A stretch of DNA of 63,478 nt, the filler included, from Diploschistes diacapsis (taxonomy: Eukaryota): assembly GCA_023645945.1 (NCBI GenBank). It is 11 parts of 11 records of this genome, joined end to end, with 100 filler letters (N's around TTAATTAATTAA, not from the genome) between each part and the next. Parts side by side here need not be neighbours in the genome. Positions count along the whole stretch, not along the records: positions 1 to 23,434 come from JALAIB010000266.1; 10 more parts are not named here. The stretch is one strand, 5' to 3'. Both the position numbers and the translations under genes were made by a program. Under the pieces are notes generated by a model. The model saw nothing but the letters and a program-made list of their open reading frames with translations. It ran no database searches and had not been told where the DNA came from. Position 1 is the stretch's first letter, and the number at the start of each line of letters is the position of its first letter. Below, piece after piece: positions 447 to 25,384 of the stretch.

Positions 447-486
<40 letters not shown>

Positions 487-696
487 TCCTCCTCCTGCTG
501 CTGTCGTCGATGCAGCCCCAGATATGTCCCTGTGTGCACCTGTCTTCCTGCCCCTCGAGATGGCCGGATTCAGCGTCGTGCTGCTGCGGTCTTTGGCATG
601 GCTCGTGTGTGCCTGACTGTGCCCGGTGTTGTGTGGCGCGGAAGCTTCGGAGCGCGCGTCTTCCGGGAGGGGGTGCCGCGGGCGCGAGGGCGCCAT
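1..696 (-). CDS. Probable SAP30/Sin3-binding-domain protein (histone deacetylase complex subunit); 3' end runs off the window
   Basis: Exon 1 is 696-331 (MAPSRPRHPLPEDARSEAS..., with a poly-Ala tract). Intron 330-211 reads GTGCGG...CTAAC...AAG. Exon 2 reads IPWSTLPTSFLHAYRHHHRLSCPSAFSS...GRFSPTMAG. The 'D.RSEAS' start and 'WSxLPxxxLHAYRxxxxLxCPSAF' motif match my recollection of Pezizomycotina SAP30-like proteins. The Sin3-binding domain itself would lie outside the window. Confidence 0.6.
438..502. repeat. (GCT)n/(CCT)n microsatellite encoding a poly-Gly/poly-Ala tract in the SAP30-like exon 1
   Basis: About 12 perfect GCT units followed by CCT units, seen directly. Confidence 0.9.
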
Positions 697-1199
697 TGGC
701 TATGATGATGGCGTGGAGATGGTGGGGATTGAGGGCTGGAGGATTGGGGATTTCGGGAATGCAGGGGGGTGGGTTTGCTGGCTGCAGAAAGGGTTGTGGA
801 TGTGTGATTGCAGTAGCGAAGCTGGAGCCGAAGGACGTGGAATGCTAAGGCCTTGGATGGTAGAGGTACATCGGGAAGGGGGCACGCGTCTGGGCTGCAC
901 TGGCCATATCCACGTCATTTTTAAGGTTTGGCTTGAGTTGCCAAGCGAGCGTGAGTGCACGAGCTAGCAACAGATGGGGAAGTTTTGCTTTGTTAGGGGC
1001 TCAGGGGTTCTTGGGCTTGGCTTACGCTCGGGAGATGGGGGAAGAACTTGTTCAGCGCGCATGATGCCGATATTGTGAGAATTATGAATGTGTTTAATTA
1101 CATGCAATGTTCGTTCTTTCGACTGTCTGGCAAAGCATCTCAGCCTCTAGTTAGATCCTAAGCAGGGAATAATGGAGCAGACCACAACGTGCTTACCAA

Positions 1200-2500
1200 G
1201 CACAAATGAGACTGCCCTCGGCCGCTTTCAAGGCGTCTCAGCAGATTATATAGCCACGAAAGCTGCATGTAACCCTGGTGCCCATCTTCCCGAAAACATA
1301 ACTGTAGGTTCACAGCTGTAGTTAAGTAGACCGTATCCGATACGCTCCAAGGCGGTCCAGCAGTCTAGAGGCTCTGAGGGTGACTGTTTCGTAGACGTAC
1401 ATTTGGAGCGATATGGGATGGTACCTAGCCAGCGCTGAAGCACTTCAGCAGGCTAATAGTTTTGTAGCTTCCACCATCCTCCTCAATCGTATTTGATCTA
1501 GCAAAATCACATGTAGGTATTCGGTTTCTGCTTGAAACGGGCTTCAGCTGGTGCTTCGGCGCTTCCACGATCCTTAAAGCCACTCATACCGTAGTCAAAC
1601 CAGGCGTTCAGTCACAGCCTAGGCAGTCCTGGGCTCGAGGTAAGACACTTTATCAACCTAGAATCCATCTTCCTCTTTGCATCCGCTCACCGCCCCGGCT
1701 GATTTAGGGTGCTCCACTATTCCAGGGACCATCTTTTTATTGGGAAGTTAACCCGCTGCTGAGACTATCGTTGATTAGCATCAAGTCGCTTCAGTGATCT
1801 AGAACTAGTCTTATCCTCGGTGCTCATTAGCCGCTGAGACTATTCCTGACCGGCTTTGAAGCGCTCATCAACCTAGGGCCCATCTGCCTTGTGAGATCAG
1901 GCCACCGCTGAGACTGTGTCTAGCTGGTTCCCATATTCCTCATTGCTTCAGGGTTCTTTGTCGCTCTTCAGAACATGGCGTCTTTGAAACCGTTGTAGAT
2001 GATTCTAGAGTGCTTCGCTGATCTAGAGCCTGTCTCGCTTTCGGAACCAGGCCGCCACTGGGACATACCACAATCAGACTTAAGTCGCTTTGATCGTTTG
2101 AGGCATGCCTTGCTTTTTGACGTTATGTCTTCGCTAATACCATCTCGAGCTGATCGTAAGGCGCTCCATTGGTCTTCGGCTCGCCATTCTTTTGGTAGGT
2201 GTTCCATTGTCCTCCTCTTCATACATCCTCGTAGTCCGCTCCGTCGTACTCATTCGCTGCTGAGACTGTCGCTGACTGATTCAGAGGCGTTACATTAATA
2301 TGAGGCCCCTCAAACTCCTAATATCAATCCTCTGCTGAGATTAGCCATGGCTGATCCCGAGGCATTTTACCGACCCGAACCTTCTCATTCTCGTAAAATT
2401 CATCTGCTGCTGATACTATCCTGGCGAGCCTCAAGGCGCTTCAAAGACCCAGGGCTCCTCTTACGTTTCGCACTCGGTAGGTGCCAAGACTGGTTCTCGC
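1200..2500. repeat. Degenerate tandem array A, ~75 bp period
   Basis: Core GCTGAGACT, or a one-mismatch variant, at 1758, 1833, 1907, 2259, 2334 and 2409, most followed ~20-25 nt later by an AGGCGCTTC-like motif. Weaker copies lie near 1208 and 1996-2170. Confidence 0.75.
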
Positions 2501-3619
2501 TAACCGAGTCAGACCCGTGACGAGCCCGTAACCTGTCCGAGGCTCAGATATGAACACCTGCCTGTGTCCAAGCTCCGCAACCTCCTATTGCCCCCTTTTC
2601 CACAAATTCATCGGCGGAGAGCTCGCTCACCTTCAGCATCCACGGCTCGTGATGGTGATGGGCGCCGCAACAATCACTATTCATTCGGTCACTTTTTCTT
2701 TGTTTTCTCACCGTTTCAGACCTGATAGTCCACCTTTCCTTCGCGCTAAGGCCAGGTAGCAAGCATATGCATTCATCCATCCACCTGAATCTGTCTGATT
2801 GGCCCGCGCAGGGTCCGAGATTGACCTATGCTTGCTATAATTGCAAAACTTGAATAGCCGTGCTTGCTAAAAACCATCATTATAGCAAGCACATACGTAA
2901 AACGGAGGCTAGAGTGGGAGAAATATGACTCAGGTGCTGTCCCCCTCATGCTGCCAGCATACAGGTAGACTGGGTTCATATGGATAGAGCTTCAAGGGTA
3001 GGCAGGTAGAGACAGAGTAGCATCATCTCAGACCTCAAGCTCTCTCCGTAGTGTCTTCCTTCCGCCCAAGGACTGTAACAACTCCCAGTAGTCGCCTGTA
3101 GAGCCCAATCACCCTGCCTGCATGGACATCAGTACGTACTCTCCCTGTAGGATGAACTCACCTCTACCCGCTCGTATCCGATAGGCTGAGCCTGTTTGCA
3201 TGCCTTCCTATTCATCCTTTTTGCCTGTTTGTCTGTCCAATAGTCCCTATGATCTGCAGAAATGACTCAGGCTGTGATAAAAAGTATATAAAGCCCTTCA
3301 CCTCCCACCTCTTCACTTCTTTCTTTCTTTGTCCTACTCACTCATCACCTCTGAGCTCCATCTGTTATCCTACCTTGAGCTATCACATCATACTCTTCCT
3401 CCTCTTTATATGTATCGGCACTCACACAGACAAGCAAGAATATATGATCACATATATAACTTCATCCTATCAGACTTTTCTTCCACTACGTCGGTACATC
3501 CACACATTCAGCTTCTTACCCAGGCTCTTTCAGTATGTATACACGTCTAAGCACATGAGTAACTGTATAGTGTATGTGTCAGATGTTGAGTGACACCGAT
3601 GTATTAGGACAAAACCTTA

Positions 3620-4070
3620 AGCATCATGAGCGCATCAGAGGCGCTTCGGTGCTTTGTTCTCTCTCTTAGAGGAAACATTGTTGACCTTGTCTAAGGACGG
3701 CAGGGGCGCTTCGGCGCTTCGAGCTCTACCTTGCATGAAATTATGGTTGAGCCTGCTCAAGCGCAGGAGAGGTGCTTCAGCACTTTGTTCTCCTTCTCAA
3801 ATGGAACGTCTTCGGCCCTGTCTGAGCGTATCAAAGGCGTCTCAGCAATTTGAGCTCTTTCTCACAAGAAATTGGTTGTTTCTGTTAAGGACAGAAGAGG
3901 CGCTCCGCCATTTTGAGCTCACTCTCAGACGAATGGGTACTGAGCTTGCTTAAGTGCATAAGAGGCGCTCCAAGAAGCTGAGCTTAGTCTTGGATGGTAT
4001 GTTGCTTATCATGATTGAGCAGTCGAGGTGCCTTGGGGGTTTCAGCTCCATCCCAAACCAAAGGTACTGC
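3620..4070. repeat. Degenerate tandem array B, ~65 bp period, 7 units
   Basis: GAGGCGCTTC-like core at 3638, 3703, 3769, 3834, 3897, 3962 and 4025, each followed by a TT(T/C)G(A/T)(G/T)CTC-like motif. Confidence 0.8.
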
Positions 4071-7000
4071 TTCAACGACTTAATCACTCGAAGCCAAGGG
4101 ATTAGGATTGGCTTCTCCAATATTTCTTCTAGAACTCTCATTCCTCGAGGTGACCGAAAGTGCCCTGGGCATCAGAATTGATAGATATAACCCCATACAA
4201 GAAGCTAGGAATGCCTATAACATATAAGTCACTATATAAAGAGGCCCAGGACCCACGGGAATAGTTAGAAGAGATTCAAGAAGGGTTGTTGCCCGCTATC
4301 TATACGGCCAGATCTTCATAGGATTTTCGCGACAACCACTTGGCTGGCCTCGCAGTGTCGGCGCATCTGTGAGAAGAGTAGGGCGAATAGCAGTTGCATT
4401 CCATTGTTGGGGAATAAGTATATACGCATCAACCTGAAACGCGATAACGGCCTGAGGGAAACCCCAAAACATTCTCGAGAAGGGCCGCTGTTCGCTAAAA
4501 GTTGCCGAAACGTGCCCCAGAGATCTTTGCACGTTGCGCCATGCAACCAGGTTCTTCGCGAATTTTACCCAACCGAATCTTGCAGGACCTATGAGCGACT
4601 TAATCCTGAATTGCATACGATGCAGATCCTACCTCTGTACTCTGTTATAGATACCGTCGAAAGCCAAGAAGAATCATAACAGGTGCTGAGAAGATCGAGA
4701 GTCGATCCCGGAAAATAGTGAGGATGGTGTTTGCAAACGACAGGAATTCTCAGCGGAAGGTAGCGGCAGGGAAGGCCGCGAAGAGCAAGATATATGAGCG
4801 CTGCTAACTTCGTCCCCGAATCTTTACTATCGAATCAATAGGATTGTCTTGAGAACTAGTTGCATATTAAGAACAGCCTGTATACCGCGCTGGGAATGCC
4901 TGAGCACTCACATTTGTATAACCAGGATGTCTGTCTACTAATCCTGTGCGTTGCAAAATACCGCAGTTTAACGAATAATGGCTCGAGGAAACTCCAGCCA
5001 GTTCACATAGCCAGACGTGATCGAGTGGTATATGATCTGCATTTGTCTCCCAGGACCTCGAATATGTTATAACCACTATGGCTAGGATTGCTGCTGTGTT
5101 TGCTTACCTGATTGTTCAGTCTTGAAGCAAGGTCTCGGAGCGGCATGAAGAGTATTACACGATGAAGTAGGGGATCTAAACCTTCTTCCGCCATCCATAC
5201 GTGGCTAGGCGTTGGGGAAAAGCGGTCGAAGAAACTGCAACTTAGATCATAGGATTGATGTTTCTCAGTATTCTGGACAGGAAATAACCAAAGAAGCCTA
5301 TGAGAAATTATGAGAGAAGATGTTCGCCCTTCTTCAGGATCAGGTGTATGTTAGGTTCCATATCGTCTCTTCAGAGCGGCGGGTGTCTCCAAGGTCTTAT
5401 CATTTCCGCAGGATATTCCAGGATCCATGCGGAGCTCGGCAGCATTGAAGTTAGACTTTGAGAGAATCACTAAAATACTATTATCATTAGAGGTTAGAAA
5501 TAAGGGGACATATTGAGGAGGAAGACGTGTGTCATTTACCAATAACACTCGAGGACCCACTCTGTATTTTCATTGCAGGGTGAAGTTGGACACCCTCTTA
5601 CAAGTATGCCTTTTGCAGTGCCTTCGGAACAAATCCGAGGTCCCAACGCCACGGTGATGGAAAGATCGAGCATCACAGTCAGTCCTAGCAAAGGGAAAGA
5701 CGAGCGGGAAGCACTGGGTTAGGTATGCGTGGGTAGGAGATCGTTTTTCTTTGAACACCAAAGATCCTCGAATGATGTCCAACCAATGCGGACAGGATCC
5801 CGGAGTTGTGTGCATTTCTCCAAATGCCTCGCATGTCATTTGCGTTGGAAAAGCACAATATGATACAAGGAAGAGCCTTCTTCAAGAAATCACACCTGCG
5901 AAAGGTAAAACTCTCAATATAACACCGAGTGAAGGTTGATAACTAATACCGTTGACTGCTTCATCATGGCACTCGTTGTCAAACGAGGATTGCCAACTGG
6001 AGGCTTCAGAATGTATCCGAGGCTGAGACGATCGAGAGGCTGTTCAAAGGCAGGTTTTGAGTTCATCAGCAAGTGCCGGTTCCAGGATGTCCGAACGTGT
6101 TCAATGACCGTCTAGAGACCGTCAAAAGACGGCCCGACACCCTAACAGAGATAGTCTTAGGAGTCGTTCTCTTTTTACTCAAAGAACGTCAAGAAACAAA
6201 TATTCTCAATCTCTACAAAGAATAGCCACAATATCAAAGGACAGCTTCTCCTCTGACTTCCATAGCATCATTCTTCATCTGCAAAGAAGCGGCCAGGAGA
6301 GTAAAAGTGGTAGTCAAACACTGTCTTTCTCTATTCAGTACACGCGACCGTCGAACTCGTGGAAAGAACCATCATTCACCCTCTCAGGACCATTGTGCTT
6401 TGTCTTCTTGTGAGATGGCGCACCTGGAGAGGCCGGAGTGCAGCTAGAGAAGAAGTGTAGGGAATAACAACCGGTGTCCCTAGTGCTCGGCGAAATCCCA
6501 CAACTCATCAAACTAAACGGTGCAACTAGAACCTGTCTACCTCTGCCTGAGACTTTAAACATCCTAGCAGGATCACTGCACCTTCTGTCCCTGCCTTGAA
6601 AAATGCTTCAGCGAAAGGAGACAAAAATGAGATCTCAACTCAGCTCGAGCACTGTTCGCTTGTCCCTATATACAGCAACTTGGCATTACATGAGTGGGTT
6701 TTTGCAAAGGCTCAGCGTCGCTGCGCTGCCTATTCTTGGAAGTGAAAAACTGAAACCCCATTATAGAATATGATCGAGGCAAAGCAGGGCTTTCTCCGGT
6801 TTTGCCCTTCGTTCTTCGAAATCTTAGTCAACTGCAGGGTCCTACTGCATGTTTCCTGCGCCAAATGCTCTTGTGACCTGGCTTAGGCAGCCAGAAAAGA
6901 AACCGAGACCGGCGTACAGAAAAGAAATAAGAGAAAAAGAACAAACGAGGTGTGGTTGGGCTCGTCTGGCACACAGGACCTAGTTCAGTGCTTATGATGA

Positions 7001-7149
7001 GTTTGGACACGATGAGCTCTCAGGATCACAACCAGCAACCCGCAACAGGTCGGCGGGCAACAAATAATGGGAGAGGAACAACCAATCATCTCCGCAAAAA
7101 CGAGTGAGGATCAAAAACTCTTTCTCGGGAGTTATGCCAAGAAGGACCT

Positions 7150-7850
7150 TTCAAATTCGACGAAACTACAGTTGATAAGCTCAGGAGTCCTTCGAAACTA
7201 CTATTTACGAAGACAGAGGGTACATTACACATATCAAAATTCAAAGTTGCATATAGCCCAGCAGTTTCACTATCTAGCTGAACCTGTGCTAGCGATCACG
7301 AATAGGTTGTCGGCCGTTTCTGCGCATTGACGAAGGATCGAGTGAAGAATATAGTCACTAGCACCAAGTCCGGAAGGGCTCCTCGAAGAATTGTTAAATA
7401 GCAGGTTCATTACTGGAAATACAGTCCATCAGGACAACACGCCTCCCACTCTCGTAGACGAATTCTCTAGCGATGAAGTCCAACCAATATAGGCAGGTAT
7501 TGGTCACTCGTCTCGGCGTCAATGATCAGGCGAGGATCAACCCAGCTACCGACACCTAGCCCCGAAGGGCTCTTGGCTTGCGGACTCTCAAGATAGCAGG
7601 GACATTACTGTACACATGGCCCAAAGAGAAACCAACCCTCCTACTCCTGGAAAGGAACACTTCGGGAATGAAACCCAAAGATCATGGCGAAGTAGCGATC
7701 GCTTCTCTCTTCCTTCTGGTGTCAGGCGAGGAACACTCCACCTATACCAAGTCCCAAAAGGCGAGTGCCTAAATATGAAGACAATAGGTACATTATACAT
7801 ATCACAACACGAAGAAGCACAAAGATCTAAGGGAGTTTCTTCTTTTAGAT
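7150..7850. repeat. Degenerate tandem array C, ~190 bp period, ~4 units
   Basis: GAAGACAGAGGGTACATTACACATATCA (7209) and GAAGACAATAGGTACATTATACATATCA (7777) differ at 4 of 28 positions. CATTA(C/T) anchors lie at ~7223, 7408, 7603 and 7791. TCAGGCGAGGA occurs at ~7527 and ~7721. Confidence 0.65.
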
Positions 7851-8039
7851 CACCCTGGCCAAGCGAACATGGACCATCGTAGGTGGTTCTTTTTCATTGA
7901 CAAAGCCGAAAAGGATTTTCCGTTCTCTCAATGCGAGTATAATCACATCTGTTATGAATAACATATCACAACTCTCACTGGATTCCATTGAAGAGGTTAT
8001 CGAGAGGTTATCGATCGCCGTATCTACAAGGCGCAACTA

Positions 8040-9180
8040 GATTCCTGAATAGCAGATTAGAGGCACTATTGCACTGGATTCCTTCGTCTAGGCAAACTTC
8101 GTGCTGGCAGAGTACTTGCAGGCGCTAATCCATTTCAATCCAAAATGCGGTACAGTTTTTGCAAGCTTGCTTCTAGAATTCTGGCTGGATCAGGGCCTGG
8201 ATGCAGAGATCAAGAGATAGGGATAGTATCCATATCAACTCCCCAAGGATTTGCAGGGAATGTTTTCTGGAGACATCCAACTATGAATCGACGAGCCTGA
8301 ACCAGGCTACCAGGCTTTGTGTTGGCAGAGTACCTTACAGATACCATGCTACCTCCCTACAGTCTGAACGGATACATAGTTCCAGGCTTGCTTCTGAGTG
8401 TGACTGCCCAGTGGCTGGAAGTTTGAGAAGCGAGAAGAAAAAGAGATAGGTACAGTACACACAAGCAAATCGTCAATGCTGGCAGGAGAGCCTCGGAAGT
8501 TGTTGTTAACCGCCATCTTCGCACCAGGCAAATTTCGTGCTGGGGGAGTGCTTAGAGGCTCTGTTCTACCTCCATATAAAACGGAGGGAACACTATCTGC
8601 AGGCTTGATTTGACCTGTGACTAGGCGTGAGCTCGATTCTGGACCCCAGATAGGTTCAGTATCTGAGCGAAGTGCTACAAACCAGGAAGTTTGTCTGGGA
8701 GAGATTCAAATGTCGCCATCTTCGGACGAGGGGGATAGATTACGTGCTGGCAGACTACAGGCATTGATTACCTCCATACAGGACCCAGTCTTTATCCAGG
8801 CTTGCTTGCACTACGCAGTCGATGGGTGTCGATATGCCAAAAGACATCTAGGTATAGTACATCAACCGAATCTCCAATGATGACAGGAAATTTCTCTGGA
8901 GAGATTCTATTGCAACACCTGTCTTCGGACCAGGCAGACAAAACAGCATGCTCGTTCATTATATCCATAGACAGCTTCCTTATAGGACCAAGCTTTACCA
9001 AGCTTGCTTGCGAATTTTGAATAAAGCGGTTATCGAATGCGAAAACAGGGAGATGGAGAGGCGTACCTCATATAGCTACAACACCACCAGCATTTCCCAG
9101 CAAATCAGTGAAACCCTGTGGAGTGGCGCCAATTATCAGCTGTCAACTCCAGACCAGGCAAACTCCGTGCCGATATGTCA
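8040..9180. repeat. Degenerate tandem array D, ~200-220 bp period, ~5 units
   Basis: GTG(C/T)TGG anchor at 8101, 8319, 8537 and 8744, with a variant at 9167. CA(A/G)GCTTG(C/A)TT occurs at ~8162, 8383, 8600, 8797 and 8999. Confidence 0.7.
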
Positions 9181-11450
9181 CACAAATCGTTCCATAACAG
9201 GTACCCATACACAGCAGCAGATTACACGGGTTTGGGATTTGCCAAGGGATCTCTGTAGGGAAATCTTCAATCCATATACCTTAAACAGGCAGCCATGCTT
9301 TGTGCCGACAGACGATAGGAACTTCTCCCGAGATAGGTACATACCTATATATGACGACAGCCCTGAGAATTCCGGGTGTCTTATAGGCAACTCCTTTGAA
9401 GCAACACCAACCGCGACGCTCGTGATTAGGCCTCGACTCAACACATTAAAAGAATCTTCCGATATACTTTGTGCACTCGCACTCTGCAAAACAATCCCAA
9501 CAATTTCTGGTGCCTTATAGGAGGAACCTTCTCTGAAAAGCTTAACAACATTCAATTCCGATGAGGTTTCGCACTGGTAGAGTGCAAGAACTCCTCCGGA
9601 ACATGCTGGCACCTACACTATACCAAACAGCTTCAAGAGTTTCCGGTGTCTTATAGGGCGTTCTTGTGAAGTAATAGCAACGAATAGTCGCCGTACCAAG
9701 CGTGAGGTAACCAGACAGTGTGTCTTTAAACTACAGATACCCTTGATGACAGGCAGACGACCTACATACGACATTACAGCTGTCGAGGTTTCCTGGTGTC
9801 TTATAGTGGCTCTCTGTGGAGTAAGGCCAATTTTCAACTGTCAACGCTGGCCTAGGTAGACTGCGTGACAGCAGCTAACATGCACTCGCCAGACATAGGC
9901 ATCATTTACCAAAATACGAGGGTTATCTATCCAATGGGTTTCCAACAGCATACAGGGGTCTCTTGTATAGCAAGGCCAAGTACAAATTGGCAACGCAGTG
10001 CCGGTAGCTAGTATTCGCATGTCTGACACAGGTGCCGTCTATCTATATACAATTTCCGACAATCTCGTTAATTTCCAGCAGCTAACAGGCAGTCCCTGCT
10101 CAGGAAGGCCAACCATTTATTGTCAACTCTGGTATAGGTAGACTGCGTGCGCAACCCTTCAGAATTTCCGGTATCTTATAGGCAACCTTTGTGGTACAAT
10201 ATGAACCGCCATATCCAGCTAGGCTTCGTGCAGACACATTACATACTACTATCCTACCCATCATAGGTATCTACCTACCTATGCACAGCACCCCCGAGAA
10301 GTCCCGGTATCTTATAGGCAACCTCTGCGAAATCAATCGATCTGCCATGTTCACCCAGGCTTCGTGCTGGCAGACTATAAGTACACCGAGGAACGGTTAC
10401 ATTACCTATACACAAGCGTTGAGAATTTCCGGCGTCTTATAGGCAATCTCTGGGGAAGCGACCAAAACGTCAGTTCCTGCGAGGCTTCGTGCCGGCGAAT
10501 GATAGATACTCTCAAGCACAGGCAGACCACCTCTATACGACCATGCAGCCTCAAGAATTCCTGGTGTCATGTAAGAAACTTTCTGTGGAGCGATAGCAAA
10601 CCGCCAGGGCTTCACAATATCAAAATCAATCCACAGCAGCACATTCAATTCCCGGCCACTCAAAGGGGGGACGAAAAGCTCATTTTTTCGCCAGGGAAGC
10701 GGCACGAGCTCTCACCCCAGCAGAGGTCAAGGCTCTTTGCAACTTCCTTGGGAAACCAGGCGCAACAGGGCAACCAAAATCAAAAATCGCTGCAAATTCT
10801 CACTTAGGCTTCGTGCTAGCCGCGTATGGATACTCTGGAGCACCGATAGATTACCTATACACAATCTCATAGCCTTGGGATCTTTCGGTGTCTTATAGGA
10901 ACCCCCCCCCTGGAACAACAAAATCAACCCATATCTTCAAGAACAGACAAGGCTTCGTGCCGGCACATTCCTGATACTTTCCAACGTCCAGGTAGCTTTC
11001 GCTTCGTGCTGGCAGACTACCAAGAAAGGTAGCTGCCCATGTACAACAGCAGTCTTAACTACCACCGGCGTATTGACAGGAGGATTCTGTGCAGCAACCC
11101 AAGGCATCAACCGCCAAAGGTATCTGCATATTTACAGTCGCTGCCTTGAGGATTCCCGGTATCTTATAGGTAGTTCCCGCGGAAAGAATCTCGGCTGTCA
11201 AGATTGCAACAGGGAGACAGAACCCCCCGGGTGGAAAGATGACCCAGAAAGGTATCGACCGATATACAACAGAGACATATCTGCTCGCACTCACCATCAG
11301 GGAGCTCCTGTGGAGAAAACGCAACCCGACGATCTTGAACAGGCGTCGTGGAGGAGTCGTAGTAAAAAGACCAGCAACTGAGGTACTTACTTACAACAAC
11401 AGCGCTCTCCCAAATTCAGGGTTTTCCGTTTAGGGAACTTCCGTGGCAAG
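9180..11450. repeat. Degenerate tandem array E, ~125-150 bp period, with conserved motif GAATTTCCGGT(G/A)TCTTATAGGCAAC
   Basis: CTTATAG core at 9380, 9514, 9650, 9800, 10175, 10311, 10436, 10892 and 11163, with weaker copies near 9252, 9962, 10568, 11070 and 11428. A second motif, AGGCTTCGTGC, occurs at ~10221, 10357, 10482, 10806 and 10950. Confidence 0.85.
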
Positions 11451-13100
11451 AAATTTGAGACACAAAAACTTGACCAGGCGTCGTGGCATTACACTGCCTT
11501 GGTGTCGTGGTGACTTGATAAGCGAACTACAAACCATGCACACCGTGAGGTTTCCCCAAAAAAAACCCCCCCCCCCGAAACCGAAAAAGAAGGGTGTGCC
11601 GTCAATTTCACCGAGGAGCAGGAGCTTGCGCGCATTGACTGGGTTTCAATTAGGAGTCAGGAGATCGGAGAGATGTGTAGGTACCTACAGAGCTGGATAC
11701 TTGCGGAGGTATATACCACAACTGGAAGTGTTTCAAGTATACCAGTGAATTCCTGCGGCAGGTAACGCGGTCTGTCTGAAGATATGGAATAGGCGTCGCG
11801 GCGTCTTCGTGATTTGGTATTGGTGAAGGGACACAAGATACGAGAGATAAGGGTGTTCCGAGAGAACCTCTACAGACCCAGGAACTTGCGGGCTTTGAAG
11901 GTTTTCAACAGGAGCCTGATTGTGCGGTTGAGGCCTTGGTGCCTGCAAAGGAGATCGATATCATAGTTCTATCATTTTCCAGGAACTTCCTTTGGAGAGA
12001 ACATGGCCCGACCATTTTGGAGAAGCGTTGTACTGTATTACTGTCTTGGTGGGCCTGCAACAAAAGTAAAGACTTGGAGGTGTGGTAGTTTGCTGCGAGA
12101 CCCTCGAGGAGCAGGAGTCCGCGAGTTCTAGTCAGATCAATATGGAAGTTTGACTGTGCCGCTAGAGACGAGTACCATCTACGAAGATATATACCGCAAT
12201 TGCGAGTACTAAGAGTATCCCAGGGGGCTCTTGCGGAGAGATCGTGGTCCAACAAGCTTGGATCAGCCTTGATAGGTGCAATCATACCGTTGTTGCTGTG
12301 GATGTGATCGTGGTGGGAGAATAAGAAGCAAGCAGACATGGAGGCGTGAACGAGTCTCAGGTCATTTTCCGAGGTCGTGGTATCCTCGTAGCCTGGTGTC
12401 GCGGTGAAAGACCAAAAGATACGCAAGAGAAAAGCGATCCGACAATTTCACCGAGGAGCAGGAGTGTGCGGGCCCTAGGTAGGACAGAAAAGGACTTTGA
12501 GTGCGCAGATAGAGCCTAGGACTTACGTAGGAGGTATACCACCCACCACACTTTGGATGCCCTCCAAAGACGTGAGGGGGTTCCTCTGGCGAGAACCTGT
12601 GTGGGCGATATGGAAAGGCCTCGTGGTGAGAGGACGATAATTCCCAGGGTGGGATTGTATCGAGAAGCTTTTGGAGGTCGTGGTGTCGCGGTGGAGGAAT
12701 AATAGGTACGGGAGATAAAGGTGTGCCGAGACAATCTCTGAATGGTTTCCAAACCTTGGCCAGATCCAAAGAAGAACTAGACGGAAAGATCGATGTGGCT
12801 GTCTCCTGCGGATGTGTATACCACACCACAACCGTTCCAAGGGTTTGAGGTTTTCCAGGGAGACCCTGTGGAGAGAGCGTTGCGAGTCGTTTTCGTCAGT
12901 ATCGTACCGTGTAGTGGTGAGGAAGAATAATAATATAGATAAGATGACAGATGTGACTGTGGTGGGGGATTTCGGTGTTGTGATGTCTTGGTCCAAGAAC
13001 GCAAAAAGAATGTGTGTCGAGAGACTCCTCGAGGTCGCGGGTCATGGTATCGCGGTGATAGAACGACGGCTACGTAGGGGTGAAGTTGTTTCAGGAGAAG
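11330..13100. repeat. Degenerate repeat tract F with an apparent ~850 bp higher-order duplication
   Basis: Exact 22-mer CAATTTCACCGAGGAGCAGGAG at 11603 and 12443. GAGATAAGGGTGTTCCGAGAGAACCTCT (~11844) resembles GAGATAAAGGTGTGCCGAGACAATCTCT (~12712). AGGCGTCG(T/C)GG and GAGGTCG(T/C)GG motifs recur at ~11341, 11476, 11791, 12371, 12674 and 13031. Confidence 0.7.
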
Positions 13101-13630
13101 TCGAGGGCCAGCAGGCTTTTATTAGATATTTTATATGTACAGCACGTCTCCCGTCCTCATCATTCCCAAAATTCCACCTAAACATTAGGAAGAAGGGAGG
13201 TAGTGAAGTAATTTTACAGTTGTTATGATAATTAGAACTTAATCTCATGTCCTCGTATCTAAAATGCCAGAAGCAAGCACAAGCGCCGCGCGCCGGGGTA
13301 TCATCGCCTTCTCAAGAGCGAGTAGCTGCAAGAAATATACAAAGCATCCAAACCATGTTCTCATATACTCCATTCTTTGACCTTGTCACCTTAAAGTTGA
13401 TCGATTCACTCTCGTAGCCTGCAGCAGCCTACAGTAGGGCCGACTCTTCCATATTGTTCACCAATATCGTTAGCAGAGGTGTCCCTCGTAGCATTTCCTC
13501 ATATCATTTGCAAACTGGTCGGGCTTGAGTCGCCGTCTTTCGGCTTGGCTAGGTTATTGAGAAGTACCGACCATTTGTGATAGGTTCATGGCAACCTGTA
13601 TCTTTAAATTTCTCAGGATCCTCCTCCCGT

Positions 13631-16600
13631 TCACTGCCCCCTCAGCATCTCTACACAGTTTCCCAGCAGAATTGCCGCCTCGTGCATCAACTCCCATCTA
13701 CAGTTCTCAAACTGTGTCCTCAGGAACATCAGCATTCCTGCGCAATGATTGCGATCTTCCAGCTTCTCCAAGTCATCCGGCTTTTTGACACCGCCTACGC
13801 GCTGCATGAACGCCCGCATGTCGCTCACCTGGTCCTCCTTCGTTTCAACAGACGGAAATTTCTCCGTTCCAAGTGGGCCGTCGAGCGCGTAACCGTAGCT
13901 CCAGATGACGAGCGAGGCAAAGTAAAGCACCCATGGTCGATTGAGCAGATAGTCGTCGCGGGGGTAGTATTCACCTGATCCGGTACGGAAAGGAGGAGGC
14001 TTTTGGACACATGGTGTGATATCCGGAGTCAAGACCTGGCCCAGGAACTTGAGGGAATAGAAGACGGCGTCGCGGGCAGAGGCCTTAGGGGCCCATACTT
14101 CGCGCATGCGGCGTGCAGTTGAACCGTAGTCCGACGGCGTAATGGTTCGACCTAGGAGTCGTTTGGCTTTGGCATAGATCTGGCATTGAACTATATCAAC
14201 ATGCATCCCCATGTGAGCAAGGTGGTGCAAGACAACGCGCGACTCGAAGAGCTGTTCCTCATCGACTTGGGAAGAGGAGTACGAGGAAGTAGATGCGTCG
14301 CGATTGTGACGGTTGGATTGCAGGGATGTCAAAGGCGGATCGGGGGTCCAGTCCGCCTCCCAAATGTCGAAAGCTTTCGTAAGCGAACCTCGCCAAACGT
14401 CCTTCCCACCAAAAGCACCAAGAGAGCGAACCTGAAGGTCCCGTTGACGGAGATGAAATCCGACGTTAAGAAGTCCTGCCATCAGCGCGGTACGGCCGAA
14501 GCGGTTCGTTCGTACTGGCTTGCCATTCAAGGTCCACTTCAGGCCGTCCAGGAAGCTGATAGCTTTCACGTCATCCGCACGATGGTTGGTTTCGATCCGT
14601 CCGACTTCCATGCCGCTACTCGCTGTCCACAGCGACTCGTCGCATGGAAGAGGCAGTCGCATTTCGTGCGCTAGCATGACAGCGGTATGCGAGAACATAG
14701 TCGCGTGAATGGAGTCAATGATGAAAGCTGCGTATGCTATTCGCTTTGTCGCCTCGTTTGTGATCCAGTGGTTCCACCAAGGATCCGGCGTGTCTGCAAT
14801 GGAGGGCTTCTCCAGCTCGGTATCAGGGGGCGAGTCCATGGCGGAGCGCCCAAGTAAAGCGCTTCCGCGCCGCAGTAGCGATATCGTGGTTGCATGGTGT
14901 ATCTGCGATCGTTCATGTAGTACTCTCGAGCTATAAAGCTTCTCGTAACACTCAACTAGTATAAGAGATTGGAGCACCCAGAGCTTGGTCGGTGGAGGGA
15001 AGTCTTTGTCCATGAAAAGCTCACCTCTCAGATGCCAGGCTAGGAAGTTCGCAAAGTCAGCACTAAAATTCGTGACCTCTTCACCATACATTCGATCCAG
15101 GTTGGCCGCGCCGATCGCCAGTATGGCAATCAGCAACAAGGGCTGAGCTTTGTTGGCCGAGAAGGTCGGTCTGTGTAAGATCGGCATCTGGTCATGGAAG
15201 TGATACCAATAGGAGCCAATATAGGTCTGAAGAGACTTGAGACTGAGGACGTGGCTGTCATGATCCCGATTGCCTGCCAGCAACTGCTCTTTCTGCTTGA
15301 CGACTGGGCTGTGGTTGGTTTCGTTGAATCGACTCTGGATGAGGTCTATGATCTGTTGTCTCTTTGCTTCGGATAAGATTGTTAGCTTAGTAGCCGGCTC
15401 GAGCAGACTTGTCACGGCCATTGAGGTTTGAGGAGGCATCGTCGGCATTGTACCGCTAAAAGGTAATCGAAGCGAGGGATCGAGATTGGCATTATCGTTT
15501 TGATGCTGACCGCTGATAGTGGATGTGTTGAAGAGCCAAGCGGCAAAATTATCTGCCATTACCACCGGAGACCTGGTGTAACCCTCTCCATCAAATACCG
15601 GCAGAGTTCCTTCGGCCAGGGGAGATTCAGTAGACATGACACCAGTCATCTCATCTAAGGTGCTGCGCATCTCACTTGCGTCACCCGGCCACTGTTCTGG
15701 CGGGAACGTCCCAGACTGTGGAACGTTGGGATACCCCGGCGGTGGGAGAGCCGACATTGCAGGAAAGCTTTGCTGATGAACGTAGCTGTTGAAGCCATTG
15801 GGATGCATCATCGAACCTTGAGAATTGCCCTGCTGTGGCCGCGGGTCCGCTTGCCACTGCATCGAGCCTTCCCCAGATCCTACAGCGCTAACTTCCTGCA
15901 GATTCTTGGTCGTGGGTCTGTGGAAACTTGCCGAGCTCATAGGGCCGAAGCTCGAGTGCCGGTGCGGCTGGAAGCTGGAGGAGCCTTCCCGGCCCGGGTA
16001 GGATGGCTGGTGTAGCCCGCCGCTTGTGTCACCAAAGTATTGACTATCGCTATTGGACCGATGAAGTCCGGAGGAGTTGATATTGCTGGAGCTGGGCGGT
16101 GATTGGAAAGTGTTGAATGCGCGAAATTTATCGGGGGGGTGCATCTGGTCCGATGAATGCGGATTCCCAGGAAGTGCCTGCTCAGCTGGGGGCGATTGCA
16201 GGACACCTGATTGAAATTCGTAGGATTGCTGATTGAAAGGGCCAGCATGGACGGAGAGATCCCCGGAAGGCATGGATGGAACAAGCCTATCGCTGGATGG
16301 GTGAGGTTGGGATAGGGCGCCATGCTGCTCGGGATTGACAAAGTAGTTATCCTTCCGTTGGAGGTGTGACCCTCGGGTGGAGTGCCTTTCGCGATGGCGG
16401 GCGCAAAGATCTTGTCTGACAAAAGAGCGGAGACAGTCGGGATAGTCACATTGGTAAATCTGCTTTGGGGTGTCTGAAACTCAGCATTAGCGATGTCTCG
16501 GATGCCAGCTGCAGTGTCACGCCCACGGTTAAGTTGATGCCGATATAGGTGCTCTGCCCTGGAATAGCTCTTGCCGCACCCTTCTTGAGGACAGAGATAT

Positions 16601-16818
16601 TTCTTGTCGAGGCCCTTCCGACTTCTCTTGCGCTTGCGTTCTCCCTTTCCCTTCCCAGCTGTTTCTTTTTGCTCATCTTCGCTGTGCACATCACCTGTTT
16701 TGTCCACTTCGCTGCCTTCCCGAACTTGATTCCGTCCCCGCTCATCTTGGTCTTCATGCTTAACGCTGGTTGAGGTTGACGACGTTGAATGTTTTCTAGC
16801 ATCCTCGGTCTTTATCAT
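13631..16818 (-). CDS. Transcription factor with two C2H2 zinc fingers and a fungal-specific transcription factor (Fungal_trans) domain; Klf1/Zas1/Ypr022c-like
   Basis: Exon 1 ends ...KKYLCPQEGCGKSYSRAEHLYRHQLN. A 53-nt intron at 16526-16474 (GTGGGC...CTAAT...CAG) joins to HTPKQIYQCDYPDCLRSFVRQDLCARHRERH, which is in frame with the 880-aa ORF. That ORF contains YWYHFHDQMPILHRPTF and LPLPCDESLW. The start codon could lie further upstream. Confidence 0.88.
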
Positions 16819-18117
16819 CTTGGATGACTTCGGTGGGAAAGTAGGGGTGGTTCATGAGACGCCTTACGCCTAATGTGGTAGTTCCAACTCGTTACTGATC
16901 AGTGCTGCAGGAATAGAAGAGGGTGATGTGTGGCACCACCCATGATAGGATGAGCGCTATTAGATGGTTGATGGTTGAAGGTCGGCCTAGATATTCTTTT
17001 CTAGTGTGAGCAATCGCCAGGTTAAGGAAGGTCTCGACCAGTGGTGTTTTAGAGAGGGAAACGAGGTCTTTTTTGGGGGGGTAAAGACGTGCGGGATGAG
17101 CTTAGAGCAAAAGATTTCATAAACTCTGAAGCTATCGAGAACGCAGATAACATCAAAGCTCGTAGCCTGACTTGAGGCCTCAACGACTGGGCGAAACTTG
17201 GTGGATTAGACGGTGGTGGAGGATGTGCAAGTTGTATCACGCAAAGTGATGCGTTCGAAGGCATGGATGGGTAAAGCATTTATTTTAACGGAAAGCCAAA
17301 GCTACTGGTAGACCAAACGTTTTGGCCTCTTTACTGCTTGGATTCCCGCCACTAGAACCACCACGTCGTCCATTCTCGCTATAATACTCCACACACACTT
17401 CAAGTTGTTGTTGCCCTGCCTTCAAAGAGGCCCGGAGTGAGCCCTTCCTTTGGAACGGGCATGGGCTAACCAGAGAAGCCGAAAGAGGGACGGAGGGGTA
17501 GTGAGAACTTGGAGCTCCAAGGACCACGTCAAGAGGAAGGAGGATAGATAGCTTTAAGCGATGCGGGCCTAATTGCTAAAAGCCCCCCCCCCGGCACAGT
17601 ACTACTACTGCTGCTACTGCTGCTGCTGCTGCTTGGTGCCACTGCTGCCACACTGTGGCTTGACTAAGCTGCTTCAGTGCCAAGAATTCATCATCTCATG
17701 ATTCTCACTACAACCTAACTAAGATGGATGGGAAAACCAGCCCAACCCAAAACGGGCAAAGATGCAAAGTGTTCTTGGCGACAAGCTTAAGATCAAGGAA
17801 TAATAGTCTCGCACAAAGTACACAGATACGTACGGCACCTCCACCCTGGGCCCCCACGTCCCCCACTTCGCTTGCAGCTTGTTCCTGCGTTATTGACTCA
17901 TTGGTACGAGAGAGAGGTGAAGTGTGCTCAAGGTGTGGAAATTGATAAGGGTATTCTTAGTATCCTAGCCATGTGCGTATATACAGATCGTATAGCAGGA
18001 CACCTGAAAGGGGTATCGATAGAAGCGAAAGAGAGCAAAACGATCCGTCCACCAGATTTCCCCGCACCCAGCAACTCCGCCCAATGCAATGATCCGTCCG
18101 TGATCCATATCGTGCCA

Positions 18118-20716: not shown

Positions 20717-21470
20717 GGTCACGAAACGGAAAACTAAGAAAACAAGTGCTATGTGATAGCTTGTGATGCGTGCGATAAAGTCCAGAGTTGGCGGGATCGG
20801 GAAGAGGGTACAGCAAGACGCGAAGTCCTTGATATAATCTTCTCGAAGCTATCAAACTTCAAAGAGAGCCGCTAGAGGTTCATCGGCAGACCGGGGTCAT
20901 GAGAAGTAAGCTGAGGCTCACGCTTTCGGACATTGAGGTCATGGGTGTGGGCGCCAGCGGAATAGCATGGGCATGGATGGTCCCCGAGCTCAGGAGCGAA
21001 TAGCATGAGGCTACTAGTGTAGTAAATGAAGATCTGGAAGACCGAGTGTAGTAGGAAAAGATCCTCCTTCGGAGCGACTCTGATATAGAGAAACATTGTG
21101 ATTCTGACTCCTTGAAATCTTGACTTACAGAAAGAATTCAAAGAGGCTGGACATGACATCCAAAGGGATTCTCACGATTGCGTTGCGTACGCGCTGCTGT
21201 CTCTCCCTAGGGATGAAAGCCATACCTTGAAGATGATTCAAAGAACATTCCATAAAGTGGCGCGCATCCCGCACCAGCATAGACCAAGCGAAAAATCGTT
21301 GCACAACACCGATCCACAGGTCAGAAGGTTTACAGGGAAGGAATCACAAATGAACAGAGGATGAAAAGACAGCATAGCATAATCCCTTCCTGCTCCCTCT
21401 TTACCAATTGCGATTCAATCGCAGTACAATAATGGTGGAGCATTATTGTAGTCAGGCAGACTGCGCTTTC

Positions 21471-21548
21471 GCTTTGGCTTTTGGCTTTGGCTTTTGGCTT
21501 TGGCTTTGGCTTTGGCTTTGGCTTTGGCTTTGGCTTTGGCTTTGGCTT
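21471..21548. repeat. (GCTTTG)n hexanucleotide microsatellite, ~13 units
   Basis: Directly visible run in the GH81/ERG28 divergent intergenic region. Confidence 0.95.
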
Positions 21549-22900
21549 CGGCGCAGATGACAGGGTGACCGATTCATCGCTTATTGACTAGGCACAACGA
21601 TGGCCATGGAAGTAAACGGAGATGGTGTGGAAAAGCAGAATAGTGCGTGCAGTTTGATGAGCAGGTGAGTAGAAGGCATATGAGGTGGCCAGGTACAAGG
21701 ACGTCTAATTTCGATACCTCATCGGAGGGAGAGGCTGTGTTGATGCGGATGTATCAGGTATGTTCCTGGGACATTATTTTAGTCTCTTACTGCAAATCTG
21801 CGTGGTCAAGCTTTGTACCTTTCTTGTGCGGGTTTTTGCTCTCAATCTGCACATTCCTCTACTTTATCCCACCAGCACACTCGCCATGGCTCTTGGTCAT
21901 CTGCAGCAATCAGGACATTGATAAAAGTTAGTTGCGGCTTGTAGCAGCAAATTCTAGTCTCTGGAGGGCTGGTGGTGACGATGGATGACCTGCATGGAAG
22001 GGATAAGGCATAAGGGATGCGGTGGGAAACGGCGTTATGCACTAAAAAAACACTAACGCCGCTAATCAGTCATCACAGTTATCATCAGTCCTTATAATTG
22101 GTGCTTCAGAGGCAAATAAGCTTTCGAAACGGCGCCAGAACACTTCTCTTGCGTGATCTGCAGGCCTTACTCTTTCTAGACGATCTCCGAGATCCCAAGT
22201 ACCTCATGGCCGGTCTTTGTGTGCAGAGTCAGCTGTCGAAGAGGTTGGCTTGCGCATGCATTTTCTACCGTGCCCTATATCCGACTCGACTCGAGCGCCT
22301 CATGAACGACCGACAAAACAGAATTCCAATCCTCGTGTTAACGTGCGTTTCAGCCACTCACAGACCCAAGCTGTGACATTGCATGCTGATGGGCCGACCT
22401 TCGAGTATGTGTGACTGCGTGCCACGATTTACCGGATCACAAAGGGCCAGGCTATGTGTCGAGAGCTCGAAGAAATACCAAGTATACAAAAACCGGCGAG
22501 CAAAGCTCACGTGGACCACTGCACCACTGCCGGCCACACTCGGCCACAGTAGGTTATCCATGGATCTGGTCAGAGGTGCTTTGAGCAGACAAGAAACCGT
22601 TCTTGCAACACAGGGATGCATTCCGGTACAAGCCAAATGCTCATTATCAAGCAAAATCTGGGGTAATGTTGCGCGACCACGCATAGCTAGTGGTAGTGGG
22701 GGAGGTTGCAAGCCACATGGGATTTCATCAAAATTATTCACCGAAGCGAGCGCACGACGCTACGTTCATAAGTCATCCAAGTGACTGCACGGAATTCAGC
22801 TTGGGTACCACAATTGTAGCCACACTCGGAGGAGACATTCTCGGATACCGCGGTGTACATGCCACATAGAGGTAGAATACTAGTTAGAGAATGCTTCCAC

Positions 22901-22937
22901 CTCCAAGCTTCTCCAAGCTTCTCCAAGCTTCTCCAAG
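22901..22937. repeat. (CTCCAAGCTT) decamer tandem repeat, ~3.7 units
   Basis: Directly visible, ~250 bp upstream of the ERG28 ATG. Confidence 0.9.
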
Positions 22938-23185
22938 ACTTTAATCGCTCAACTCATAATAAAATTTATTCAAATATGTCTTCTTAGAAAGTATGATATC
23001 TATCATCATGAGCGCTAGGAAGTGCCCTAAGAGTAACTGAGGCTTCTTTTAAACTCGCTACCAAAGTCGTTAACATAGCCGCTTACGGCTAGTCCAATAT
23101 TGATTTTTCGAAGACTCTGAGATGTAAACATTTTGCCGGCCATTTTTGGCTCACTTGCGTCAATTGCTGCTCGTACAACACCGCC

Positions 23186-25284: not shown

Positions 25285-25384
25285 NNNNNNNNNNNNNNNN
25301 NNNNNNNNNNNNNNNNNNNNNNNNNNNNTTAATTAATTAANNNNNNNNNNNNNNNNNNNNNNNNNNNNNNNNNNNNNNNNNNNN

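What the first reader, a model, noticed from the sequence alone, without database searches (positions are those of the whole stretch)
1000..13300. 12-kb gene-free tract built largely from successive, highly diverged tandem-repeat arrays with no RIP signature
Seen: between the SAP30-like promoter and the 3' end of the C2H2 factor there is no credible protein ORF for ~12 kb, while intergenic gaps on contig 8 are ~0.5-1 kb. The tract has balanced base composition and abundant CpA/TpG, unlike the AT-rich repeat contigs. It resolves into at least six arrays (75, 65, ~190, ~215, ~135 bp periods and a larger irregular one). Neighbouring arrays share motifs: AGGCGCTTC in A and B, CTTCGTGCTGGCAGA in D and E. 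Known: RIP needs long high-identity duplications, so short units diverged this far are poor substrates. Inference: the locus grew by repeated local amplification and may be a modular lncRNA, a chromatin or protein-binding array, or neutral ancient minisatellite. I recognise no TE or protein that explains it.
Basis: partly seen in the sequence, partly recalled or inferred. Interest (0 to 1): 0.7.

Follow-up and report, generated by a model that had tools for sequence, protein, structure and literature searches.

The report
Old non-coding tandem-repeat tract, fungal
A 12-kb stretch without genes in a fungal (probably lichen-type) genome was built by repeated local duplication of short non-coding segments; most of it has decayed, but two short words are kept almost unchanged in many copies, which hints at a protein-binding role that remains untested.

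Summary
Window 1000-13300 has no credible gene. All copies are direct and on the + strand, far beyond chance. The arrays span about half of the tract; 2.5-3.6 kb and 4.1-7.2 kb show no repeats. They form two founder families (A+B; D+E, with weaker links to C and F). Units are old (48-61% identity, ts/tv 0.9-1.5) and show no RIP signature. Coding, TE, known-RNA and structured-RNA readings were tested and failed. Decay is not uniform. In array E a 17-nt core (TTyCyGGTrTCTTATAGG) stays at 0.82 pairwise identity against 0.45 for the rest, and a second core (AGGCTTCGTGC / CGTGCTGGCAG) is shared by D and E. My best reading is an old non-coding spacer made by serial tandem duplication, mostly drifting, with at least one array kept as a cluster of sequence-specific binding sites. 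Whether those sites act on DNA or on an RNA is open. Transcription and cross-species conservation could not be tested: nearest relatives are 73-81% identical in the flanking protein, and no DNA of them could be fetched. Moderate interest.

The parts
1000..13300 (.). ORF-poor non-coding tract between a left-hand minus-strand gene fragment and the 3' end of a C2H2/Fungal_trans factor gene
   Evidence: flanks
1626..2467 (+). Array A: 7 units of ~75 bp (partly interspersed), with the best-kept block GCTGAGACTATC and AAGGCGCTTCA
3283..3410 (+). TATA-like box (GTATATAAAG) followed by a ~110-nt pyrimidine-rich stretch. This is a possible Pol II core promoter pointing into array B. It was read from the sequence only and is inferred, not tested.
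   Evidence: sequence reading
3628..4013 (+). Array B: 6 units of 63-66 bp, with the best-kept block AGAGGCGCTTCG. It is weakly related to A.
4100..7200 (.). Segment with no detectable self-similarity, no Pfam hit and A>T skew on the + strand. Its nature is unknown.
7201..7905 (+). Array C: about four ~190-bp units (7201-7335 resembles 7769-7905; 7362-7551 resembles 7553-7744)
8094..8935 (+). Array D: 4 units at a ~218-bp period carrying the core CGTGCTGGCAG. The E-unit profile also hits here (8251, 8684, 8884).
9107..11495 (+). Array E: 15 profile hits of ~125-150 bp, plus two more diverged units at 9865-10127
9371..11170 (+). Nine copies of the protected core M1, TTyCyGGTrTCTTATAGG (starts 9371, 9505, 9641, 9791, 10166, 10302, 10427, 10883, 11154). 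On the minus strand it reads CCTATAAGA..., with CTATAAG in 9 of 9 aligned units.
8095..11016 (+). Nine copies of core M2, GGCTTCGTGCTGGCAGA, with up to 3 mismatches (starts 8095, 8313, 8738, 10222, 10358, 10483, 10807, 10951, 11000). None is on the minus strand.
11582..13099 (+). Array F: irregular units (offsets 287, 347, 840-868), with the best-kept block TGGTATCGCGGT. It is weakly related to E through the ...CTGTGGAGAGA segment.

Best explanation
The tract is non-coding spacer DNA that grew by serial local tandem duplication of two unrelated founder segments. One founder gave arrays A and B. The other gave D and E, and probably C and F. The duplications are old, and most of the sequence now drifts.

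In array E, and across D and E for the second word, two short words have been kept while the rest of each unit decayed to near-random similarity. These are M1 (TTyCyGGTrTCTTATAGG) and M2 (AGGCTTCGTGC / CGTGCTGGCAG). The simplest reading is purifying selection on about nine to ten copies of a sequence-specific binding site spaced about 135 bp apart. That would make it a homotypic cluster of protein-binding sites. I think these sites more likely act on the DNA (regulatory, promoter-like or chromatin element) than in an RNA.

SHOWN: the tract is non-coding; it arose by tandem duplication; the arrays are old; there is no RIP; conservation is non-uniform.

INFERRED: selection, protein binding, and DNA-level action.
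For: TANDEM ORIGIN. 29 direct and 0 inverted self-matches lie inside the tract, against 0 in 3 Markov controls. All profile hits are on the + strand, and there are 0 hits in 5 shuffled windows. Cross-array profile hits: E to D at E 1e-7 to 1e-8, D to E, E to F 0 of 100 shuffles, A to B 0 of 100, B to A 1 of 100.

NON-CODING. 0 of 71 ORFs pass Pfam. The consensus of every array has stops in all six frames. No repeat peptide appears in any frame of A or B. Codon-phase signal is weak.

OLD, NOT RIP. Mean unit identity is 0.48-0.61 and ts/tv is 0.89-1.51. RIP indices are 0.85 and 1.22.

NON-UNIFORM DECAY. The best 17-column block of E has pairwise identity 0.82 against 0.45 for the rest; 0 of 20000 column shuffles reach it. 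The 12-column block GGTGTCTTATAG scores 0.92 against 0.46; 0 of 5000. An alignment-free count gives TCTTATAGG 7 times and GCTTCGTGC 6 times on the + strand with 0 reverse complements, against at most 4 in 50 Markov-2 controls. AGGCTTCGTGC occurs 5 times against at most 3.

AGAINST AN RNA-FOLD ROLE. There are 0 consensus pairs for E on either strand. Fold z-scores range from -0.81 to +1.32 in 8 of 8 unit folds.
Against: There is no evidence that any protein binds M1 or M2. I recognise no known factor site. The resemblance of the minus-strand CTATAAG to a TATA box is recalled knowledge, not a test.

Only array E is clearly non-uniform. The block tests for the other arrays are F 42, C 160, D 188, A 250 and B 1302 of 5000 shuffles, so most of the tract looks like uniform decay.

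The units for the E alignment were chosen around the motif, which inflates the contrast somewhat. The k-mer count does not share this weakness.

Conservation in other species could not be examined. Short-tract gene conversion limited to the core is not excluded.

Short palindromes, which would have suggested dimeric DNA-binding factors, are not enriched (z 0.6-1.0).

Strict + strand orientation and A>T skew over 4-12 kb would also suit a transcript.
Confidence: 0.45

Rival explanations
1. Modular long non-coding RNA. A Pol II transcript starts near the TATA-like box and pyrimidine-rich leader at ~3286-3410 and runs rightwards through the arrays. The repeated M1/M2 words would then be binding sites for an RNA-binding protein, so the RNA acts as a multivalent platform or sponge in the manner of NORAD.
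For: - All arrays and all motif copies are on the + strand.
- A>T skew on the + strand is sustained over 4-12 kb, including the non-repeat part.
- A TATA-like box plus CT-rich stretch points the right way (sequence reading only).
- The architecture of diverged units keeping short words matches NORAD, which has twelve ~300-nt units that keep Pumilio elements (passages read, 10.1101/033423).
Against: - Direct orientation follows from tandem duplication and needs no transcript.
- There is no conserved fold and no excess stability on either strand.
- There is no Rfam match in the tract.
- M1 is not a Pumilio element as given: the G of its UGU is A in 4 of 10 copies.
- Transcription is untested.
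Confidence: 0.2
2. Purely neutral relic. These are old minisatellites left to decay in a region where deletions happened not to remove them. The better-kept words would then reflect chance, local mutation-rate differences or short conversion tracts.
For: - Five of six arrays show nearly uniform decay.
- No fold, no known RNA and no coding signal were found.
- Earlier notes of this scan list several old intergenic tandem arrays in other fungal windows. These are unchecked leads, not evidence.
Against: - The M1 block has sharp edges: column identity falls from 0.80-1.00 to 0.22-0.49 within one or two columns.
- 0 of 20000 column shuffles reach the observed block.
- Exact 9-mers recur 6-7 times, against at most 4 in 50 controls, in units whose overall identity is about 0.5.
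- A 12-kb neutral spacer is an outlier beside gaps of 0.04-3.2 kb.
Confidence: 0.27
3. Decayed repeat-protein gene (for example a Kex2-processed repeat peptide or pheromone precursor) or a decayed transposable element with internal tandem repeats.
For: - Periods of 75, ~129 and ~183 bp are multiples of three.
- Array B's unit spacings of 63-66 bp are near 63 or 66, and it lies just downstream of a promoter-like stretch.
- Several frames of 170-220 codons are open.
Against: - The consensus of every array has stops in all six frames, at least one per unit where the period is a multiple of three.
- No coherent peptide repeat appears in any frame. The two CaaX-like short ORFs are, by my rough estimate, at chance level.
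- 0 of 71 ORFs pass Pfam.
- The 194-aa ORF has no homologue.
- The 220-aa ORF matches only itself and two translated satellites. Their single stretches score 27-36 bits, and the two satellites match different parts of the query.
- There are no inverted repeats.
- Nothing like the tract lies in the other 50 kb of the window: 0 blastn hits, and 0 tblastn hits for 183 ORFs.
Confidence: 0.04
4. Chromosomal element such as a small regional centromere or a facultative-heterochromatin domain marked by the repeats.
For: It is a gene-free ~12 kb tract with balanced base composition and tandem repeats.
Against: Nothing specific supports it. The repeats are short, old and heterogeneous rather than a homogenised satellite. 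No test is possible with sequence alone.
Confidence: 0.04

Closest known systems
Diverged intergenic minisatellites / old tandem duplications in fungal non-coding DNA
   Same: Head-to-tail direct copies of 65-350 bp, non-coding, decayed to 48-61% identity.
   Different: There are six successive arrays from two founder families filling about half of a 12-kb gene-free tract, where such arrays are usually single and a few hundred bases long. Two short words are kept far better than the rest.
NORAD lncRNA of mammals (10.1101/033423, passages read)
   Same: Its central region consists of about a dozen diverged repeat units that keep short protein-binding words. The self-dot-plot pattern is similar.
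   Different: NORAD is known to be transcribed, is conserved across mammals and keeps stem-loops. Here transcription and conservation are untested and no conserved stem-loop exists. M1 is not the Pumilio word.
Sub-repeat arrays of ribosomal DNA intergenic spacers (10.1101/2023.02.20.529178; only the start of the abstract was seen, in the listing)
   Same: Successive arrays of different short periods in one long non-coding spacer.
   Different: No rRNA gene or any other Rfam family lies in 1-23434. The flanks are Pol II protein-coding genes.
Tandemly multiplied promoter or enhancer segments in filamentous fungi, for example the 126-bp repeats upstream of CYP51 in Penicillium digitatum (recalled; one search lists papers that hold these terms, none read)
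   Same: Tandem copies of a ~100-200-bp non-coding unit that multiply a binding site.
   Different: Those are young, near-identical copies that sit directly upstream of the regulated gene. Here the units are old, and array E lies 2-4.5 kb beyond the 3' end of one gene and more than 8 kb upstream of the other.

Membership tests
Minisatellite / tandem-duplication array | Head-to-tail direct copies beyond chance | tested here: met
   29 direct and 0 inverted pairs in the tract against 0 in 3 Markov controls. HMM hits are all on the + strand, with 0 hits in 5 shuffled windows.
Minisatellite / tandem-duplication array | Non-coding units | tested here: met
   There are stops in all six frames of every array consensus, and 0 of 71 ORFs pass Pfam.
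Minisatellite / tandem-duplication array | Copy-number variation between individuals | not testable with these tools
   ORF calls from the tract are singletons from one contig. No other assembly of this organism was reachable.
Modular lncRNA (NORAD-like) | Transcribed as one RNA | not testable with these tools
   No read data could be laid on the tract (see Tried and rejected).
Modular lncRNA (NORAD-like) | Repeat units keep short words better than the rest | tested here: met
   This holds for array E only: 0.82 against 0.45, 0 of 20000 shuffles, with k-mer counts. The other arrays are marginal or do not show it.
Modular lncRNA (NORAD-like) | Conserved stem-loops in the units | tested here: not met
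   There are 0 consensus pairs on either strand of E. B is weak, with 1 of 12 pairs compensatory and a covariation term of +1. Fold z-scores run from -0.81 to +1.32.
Repeat-protein gene (Kex2-processed repeats, pheromone precursor), decayed | Open frame in the unit consensus, with a period that is a multiple of 3 | tested here: not met
   All six frames are closed in all six arrays. Periods of 65, 212 and 284 are not multiples of 3. No repeat peptide was found.
Repeat-protein gene or any protein family | Profile or sequence homology | tested here: not met
   Pfam gives 0 of 71. The 194-aa ORF has no hit. The 220-aa ORF matches only itself plus spurious satellite translations.
Transposable element | TE protein domains, terminal repeats, dispersed copies | tested here: not met
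   There are no domains, no inverted repeats and no copy in the other 50 kb of the window. A whole-genome copy count was not possible because no genome is held.
RIP-mutated repeat | High TpA/ApT, low (CpA+TpG)/(ApC+GpT), and transition-dominated differences | tested here: not met
   The tract scores 0.85 and 1.22, against 1.00-1.09 and 0.53-0.62 in the AT-rich pieces. ts/tv is 0.89-1.51. The usual cut-offs (about 0.89 and 1.03) are recalled.
rDNA intergenic spacer sub-repeats | Lies between rRNA genes | tested here: not met
   The Rfam scan of 1-23434 found no rRNA. The flanks are protein-coding genes.
Known RNA families / tRNA-derived repeats | Match to an Rfam model or a tRNA | tested here: not met
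   There is one match at E 0.89 at 22027, outside the tract, and 0 tRNAs.
Regional centromere | CENP-A occupancy | not testable with these tools
   Sequence alone cannot show this.

The most novel reading that the evidence does not exclude
The tract is a functional multivalent platform in a lichen-type ascomycete. It could be a long non-coding RNA started at the promoter-like stretch near 3.3 kb, or a DNA element. Either way, its tandem modules present about ten copies each of two selected words (M1, M2) to a sequence-specific protein. That would be a fungal counterpart of repeat-built regulators such as NORAD, assembled by serial tandem duplication.
Probability: 0.2. Interest if true: 0.7.

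Novelty: new member of a known kind. Interest (0 to 1): 0.38.

Why it matters
Compact ascomycete genomes rarely keep 12 kb without a gene. If the protected words M1 and M2 prove to be bound and conserved, the locus would show how serial tandem duplication builds a multivalent regulatory element (DNA or RNA) in a fungus. It would also give a concrete motif to test. If they do not, the locus is simply a well-preserved record of minisatellite birth and decay that escaped RIP because its units were short and soon diverged.

Tried and rejected
- WHOLE GENOME: none is held, so there is no genome-wide copy count and no scan for similar deserts.
- RNA EVIDENCE: the look-up of sequencing runs listed no RNA holder. 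None was listed, which is not evidence either way, so read laying could not be used.
- EARLIER NOTES: none for this genome, and none by sequence.
- METAGENOME SCANS (both blank): the two-motif pattern found 0 loci. The flanking factor as a synteny anchor gave 8 pattern matches, none confirmed.
- PROTEIN-LEVEL RELATIVES OF ARRAY ORFs: the 194-aa ORF gave none. The 220-aa ORF gave its own call (P0001) plus P0002 and P0003. I reject those two as translated satellites: single stretches score 27-36 bits, the library E-values come from summing near-identical copies, and the two match different parts of the query.
- CLUSTER LOOK-UP: 2 of 7 ATG-ORFs are in the collection, both as singletons from one 21,056-bp contig.
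- CALIBRATION: the flanking factor's nearest relatives are 73-81% identical. Named ones are lichen-forming Lecanoromycetes at about 50%. The blanks above therefore say nothing about conservation of non-coding DNA.
- PALINDROME IDEA (M2 and an AGGTA..TACCT word looked palindromic): not enriched, z 0.6-1.0; AGGTA-n-TACCT occurs only twice. Dropped.
- PUMILIO-LIKE READING OF M1: dropped.
- PHEROMONE OR Kex2-REPEAT READING OF ARRAY B: dropped.
- STRUCTURED-RNA READING: dropped.
- LITERATURE: one search for repeat-built non-coding loci in filamentous fungi listed nothing comparable among the 15 of 99 papers shown. This is one search, so it does not show the topic is absent from print.


Full report
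SETTING. The window is a composite of pieces separated by runs of N. The tract lies in the first piece, 1-23434. No whole genome is held for it.

The right-hand neighbour (13631-16851, minus strand) carries a C2H2 finger and a Fungal_trans domain at E 8.9e-59. The next gene is a GH81 glucanase. The factor's look-alikes are ascomycete. Its nearest relatives are 73-81% identical proteins from unnamed assemblies. The nearest named ones are lichen-forming Lecanoromycetes at about 50%. The DNA is therefore from an ascomycete, probably of that group.

The left-hand neighbour runs off the window. The fragment present gives no Pfam hit, so the label 'SAP30-like' is unverified.

IS THE TRACT GENE-FREE? 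The longest stop-free frame between 1000 and 13300 is 220 codons. Of 71 stop-to-stop ORFs of 70 aa or more, 64 have no Pfam hit and 7 have weak hits at E 0.02-0.097. All are well under the curated cut-offs.

Codon-phase GC asymmetry stays at or below 0.135. It is 0.13-0.35 over most of the two flanking genes, although parts of those genes fall as low as 0.07, so this measure is supportive rather than decisive. The translations look like noise.

The gap without an ORF of 230 aa or more is 13.6 kb. Elsewhere in the two long pieces the gaps are 0.04-1.5 kb, plus 1.3 and 3.2 kb.

Two ORFs of the tract (P0001, P0004) and the factor (P0007) are each recorded on a single contig of the same length, 21,056 bp, in an independent assembly. 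This suggests, but does not prove, that the tract is not an assembly artefact.

ARE THE ARRAYS REAL? Tandem Repeats Finder reports nothing with a period above 13, because the copies are too diverged. The seed-and-extend repeat finder gives 30 direct families.

Stringent self-blastn gives 13 direct and 0 inverted pairs in the tract, against 0-1 in three control regions and 0 direct pairs in three shuffles. A scoring tuned to about 65% identity gives 35 direct pairs in piece 1. Of these, 29 lie within 1728-12739 and 6 are a CTG microsatellite. There are 0 inverted pairs, 0 pairs in three Markov controls and 1 in the other long piece.

Iterated profile HMMs define the arrays:
- A: 7 units of 75 bp, 1626-2467
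- B: 6 units of 63-66 bp, 3628-4013
- C: 7201-7905, offsets 191 and 568
- D: 4 units at ~218 bp, 8094-8807
- E: 15 hits of ~125-150 bp, 9107-11495
- F: 4 units, 11817-13099

Every hit is on the + strand. The E profile finds nothing in five shuffled windows and nothing elsewhere in the 63 kb.

By span the arrays make up about 6.7 of 12.3 kb. About 2500-3600 and about 4100-7200 show no self-similarity.

HOW ARE THE ARRAYS RELATED? The E profile hits D units at E 1e-7 to 1e-8, and the D profile hits E. E reaches F weakly but in phase with F units: 4 + strand hits, with 0 of 100 shuffles as good. A reaches B (0 of 100) and B reaches A (1 of 100). C2 reaches D marginally (3 of 100). There is no link between A/B and D/E.

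The tract therefore descends from two founder segments that were re-amplified several times with changed unit length.

AGE AND RIP. Mean pairwise identity within arrays is 0.48-0.61. The transition/transversion ratio is 0.89-1.51, which indicates old, partly saturated divergence rather than RIP-type C-to-T damage.

The RIP indices of the tract are 0.85 (TpA/ApT) and 1.22 ((CpA+TpG)/(ApC+GpT)), like the genic flanks. Three AT-rich pieces of the same window give 1.00-1.09 and 0.53-0.62.

CODING, TE AND KNOWN-RNA RIVALS. The majority consensus of each array, read as a trimer, has stops in all six frames. Where the period is a multiple of three (A 75, C 183, E 129) there is at least one stop per unit in every frame.

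No frame of A or B shows a repeated peptide. The two CaaX-like short ORFs are, by my rough estimate, what chance gives.

The 194-aa ORF across array E has no homologue. The 220-aa ORF, scored against 1.84 billion representatives, finds its own ORF call and two proteins that are translated high-copy satellites. Their single stretches score only 27-36 bits. The two proteins match different parts of the query, and the library E-values come from summing near-identical copies. I reject them.

There are no inverted repeats. Nothing in the other 50 kb of the window resembles the tract: 0 blastn hits, and 0 tblastn hits for 183 ORFs. Rfam gives no match in the tract, and there is no tRNA.

IS DECAY UNIFORM? 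It is not in array E. In an alignment of ten units, the columns of TTyCyGGTrTCTTATAGG (M1) have mean pairwise identity 0.82 against 0.45 for the rest. The edges are sharp, and 0 of 20000 column shuffles reach this value. With nine units, the block GGTGTCTTATAG scores 0.92 against 0.46, with 0 of 5000 shuffles.

Because the units were picked around the motif, I added an alignment-free count. TCTTATAGG occurs 7 times and GCTTCGTGC 6 times on the + strand, with no reverse complement in the tract, against at most 4 in 50 Markov-2 controls. AGGCTTCGTGC occurs 5 times and CGTGCTGGCAG 4 times, against at most 3, and CGTGCTGGCAG is shared by arrays D and E more than 2 kb apart. Allowing mismatches, M1 has 9 + strand copies and 1 minus-strand copy in the whole window. 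M2 has 9 and 0.

The other arrays are marginal or uniform: F 42, C 160, D 188, A 250 and B 1302 of 5000 shuffles.

RNA OR DNA? RNAalifold predicts no pair for the E units on either strand. For B it predicts a weak fold without real covariation: 1 of 12 pairs compensatory, covariation term +1. Eight single-unit folds have z-scores from -0.81 to +1.32. A structured RNA is not supported. An unstructured protein-binding RNA is not excluded.

M1 is not the Pumilio word given in the NORAD paper, because the G of its UGU is A in 4 of 10 copies. On the minus strand the invariant core reads CTATAAG in 9 of 9 units. This resembles a TATA-type box, but that is recalled knowledge, not a test.

My idea that M2 and a third word were palindromic sites for dimeric factors failed: short inverted repeats are at background, z 0.6-1.0.

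A TATA-like box with a ~110-nt pyrimidine-rich stretch at ~3283-3410 points into array B. The + strand is A-rich relative to T over 4-12 kb. Both fit a rightward transcript, but neither shows one.

WHAT COULD NOT BE TESTED. Transcription could not be tested because no runs were listed (no evidence either way). Conservation could not be tested because both metagenome scans were blank, the tool that would fetch the relatives' contigs is closed, and the nearest relatives are too distant for non-coding alignment. Genome-wide copy number also could not be tested.

Earlier notes of this scan list several old intergenic tandem arrays with kept cores in other fungal windows. These are unchecked leads. 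They suggest the kind is common and that this locus is an unusually large composite example.

VERDICT. The tract is non-coding, old and free of RIP. Most of it looks like drift. Array E, and D for M2, keeps two short words in a way that uniform decay does not explain.

I commit to a cluster of selected protein-binding sites, with a DNA-level role somewhat more likely than an RNA one, at 0.45. The rivals are a repeat-built lncRNA at 0.20, a purely neutral relic at 0.27, a decayed gene or TE at 0.04 and a chromosomal element at 0.04.

It is a large member of a known kind (old intergenic tandem arrays with kept cores) and of moderate interest until expression, binding or conservation is shown.

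Noticed in passing
window 23435-34618 and 57950-63478: The window is a composite. Short pieces of ~1.8 kb are separated by paired 44-base N runs. They are AT-rich (GC 0.30-0.32) with RIP-like indices (TpA/ApT 1.00-1.09; (CpA+TpG)/(ApC+GpT) 0.53-0.62) and CpG observed/expected of 1.8-2.7.
   Followed up: partly
window 448-503 and 17602-17646: A (CTG)n microsatellite in the left-hand gene fragment matches a similar run near 17.6 kb. This accounts for the only self-matches of piece 1 outside the tract.
   Followed up: no
window 10902-10910, 11558-11576, 17583-17592: There are homopolymer runs (C9; A8 followed by C11; C10), two of them inside arrays E/F. They could be real or could be assembly or sequencing artefacts.
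   Followed up: no
window 20194-23434: A second stretch of 3.2 kb, upstream of the GH81 gene and running to the end of the piece, has no ORF of 230 aa or more. No self-similarity was detected there.
   Followed up: no
window 13301-23434: Inverted repeats with 6-bp stems are enriched in the genic flank (25 observed against 13.0 expected, z 3.0) but not in the tract.
   Followed up: no
proteins P0002 and P0003 (protein library): The library holds long 'proteins' (1302 and 572 aa) that are translations of near-identical tandem satellites. They reach library E-values of 1e-5 to 1e-6 against noise ORFs by summing many copies. This is a trap for homology searches with repeat-derived queries.
   Followed up: yes
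window 4727-4753: There is a single weak + strand hit of the E-unit profile in the otherwise non-repeat segment (4.2 bits; 0 of 100 shuffles as good). It may be a last trace of older units there.
   Followed up: no
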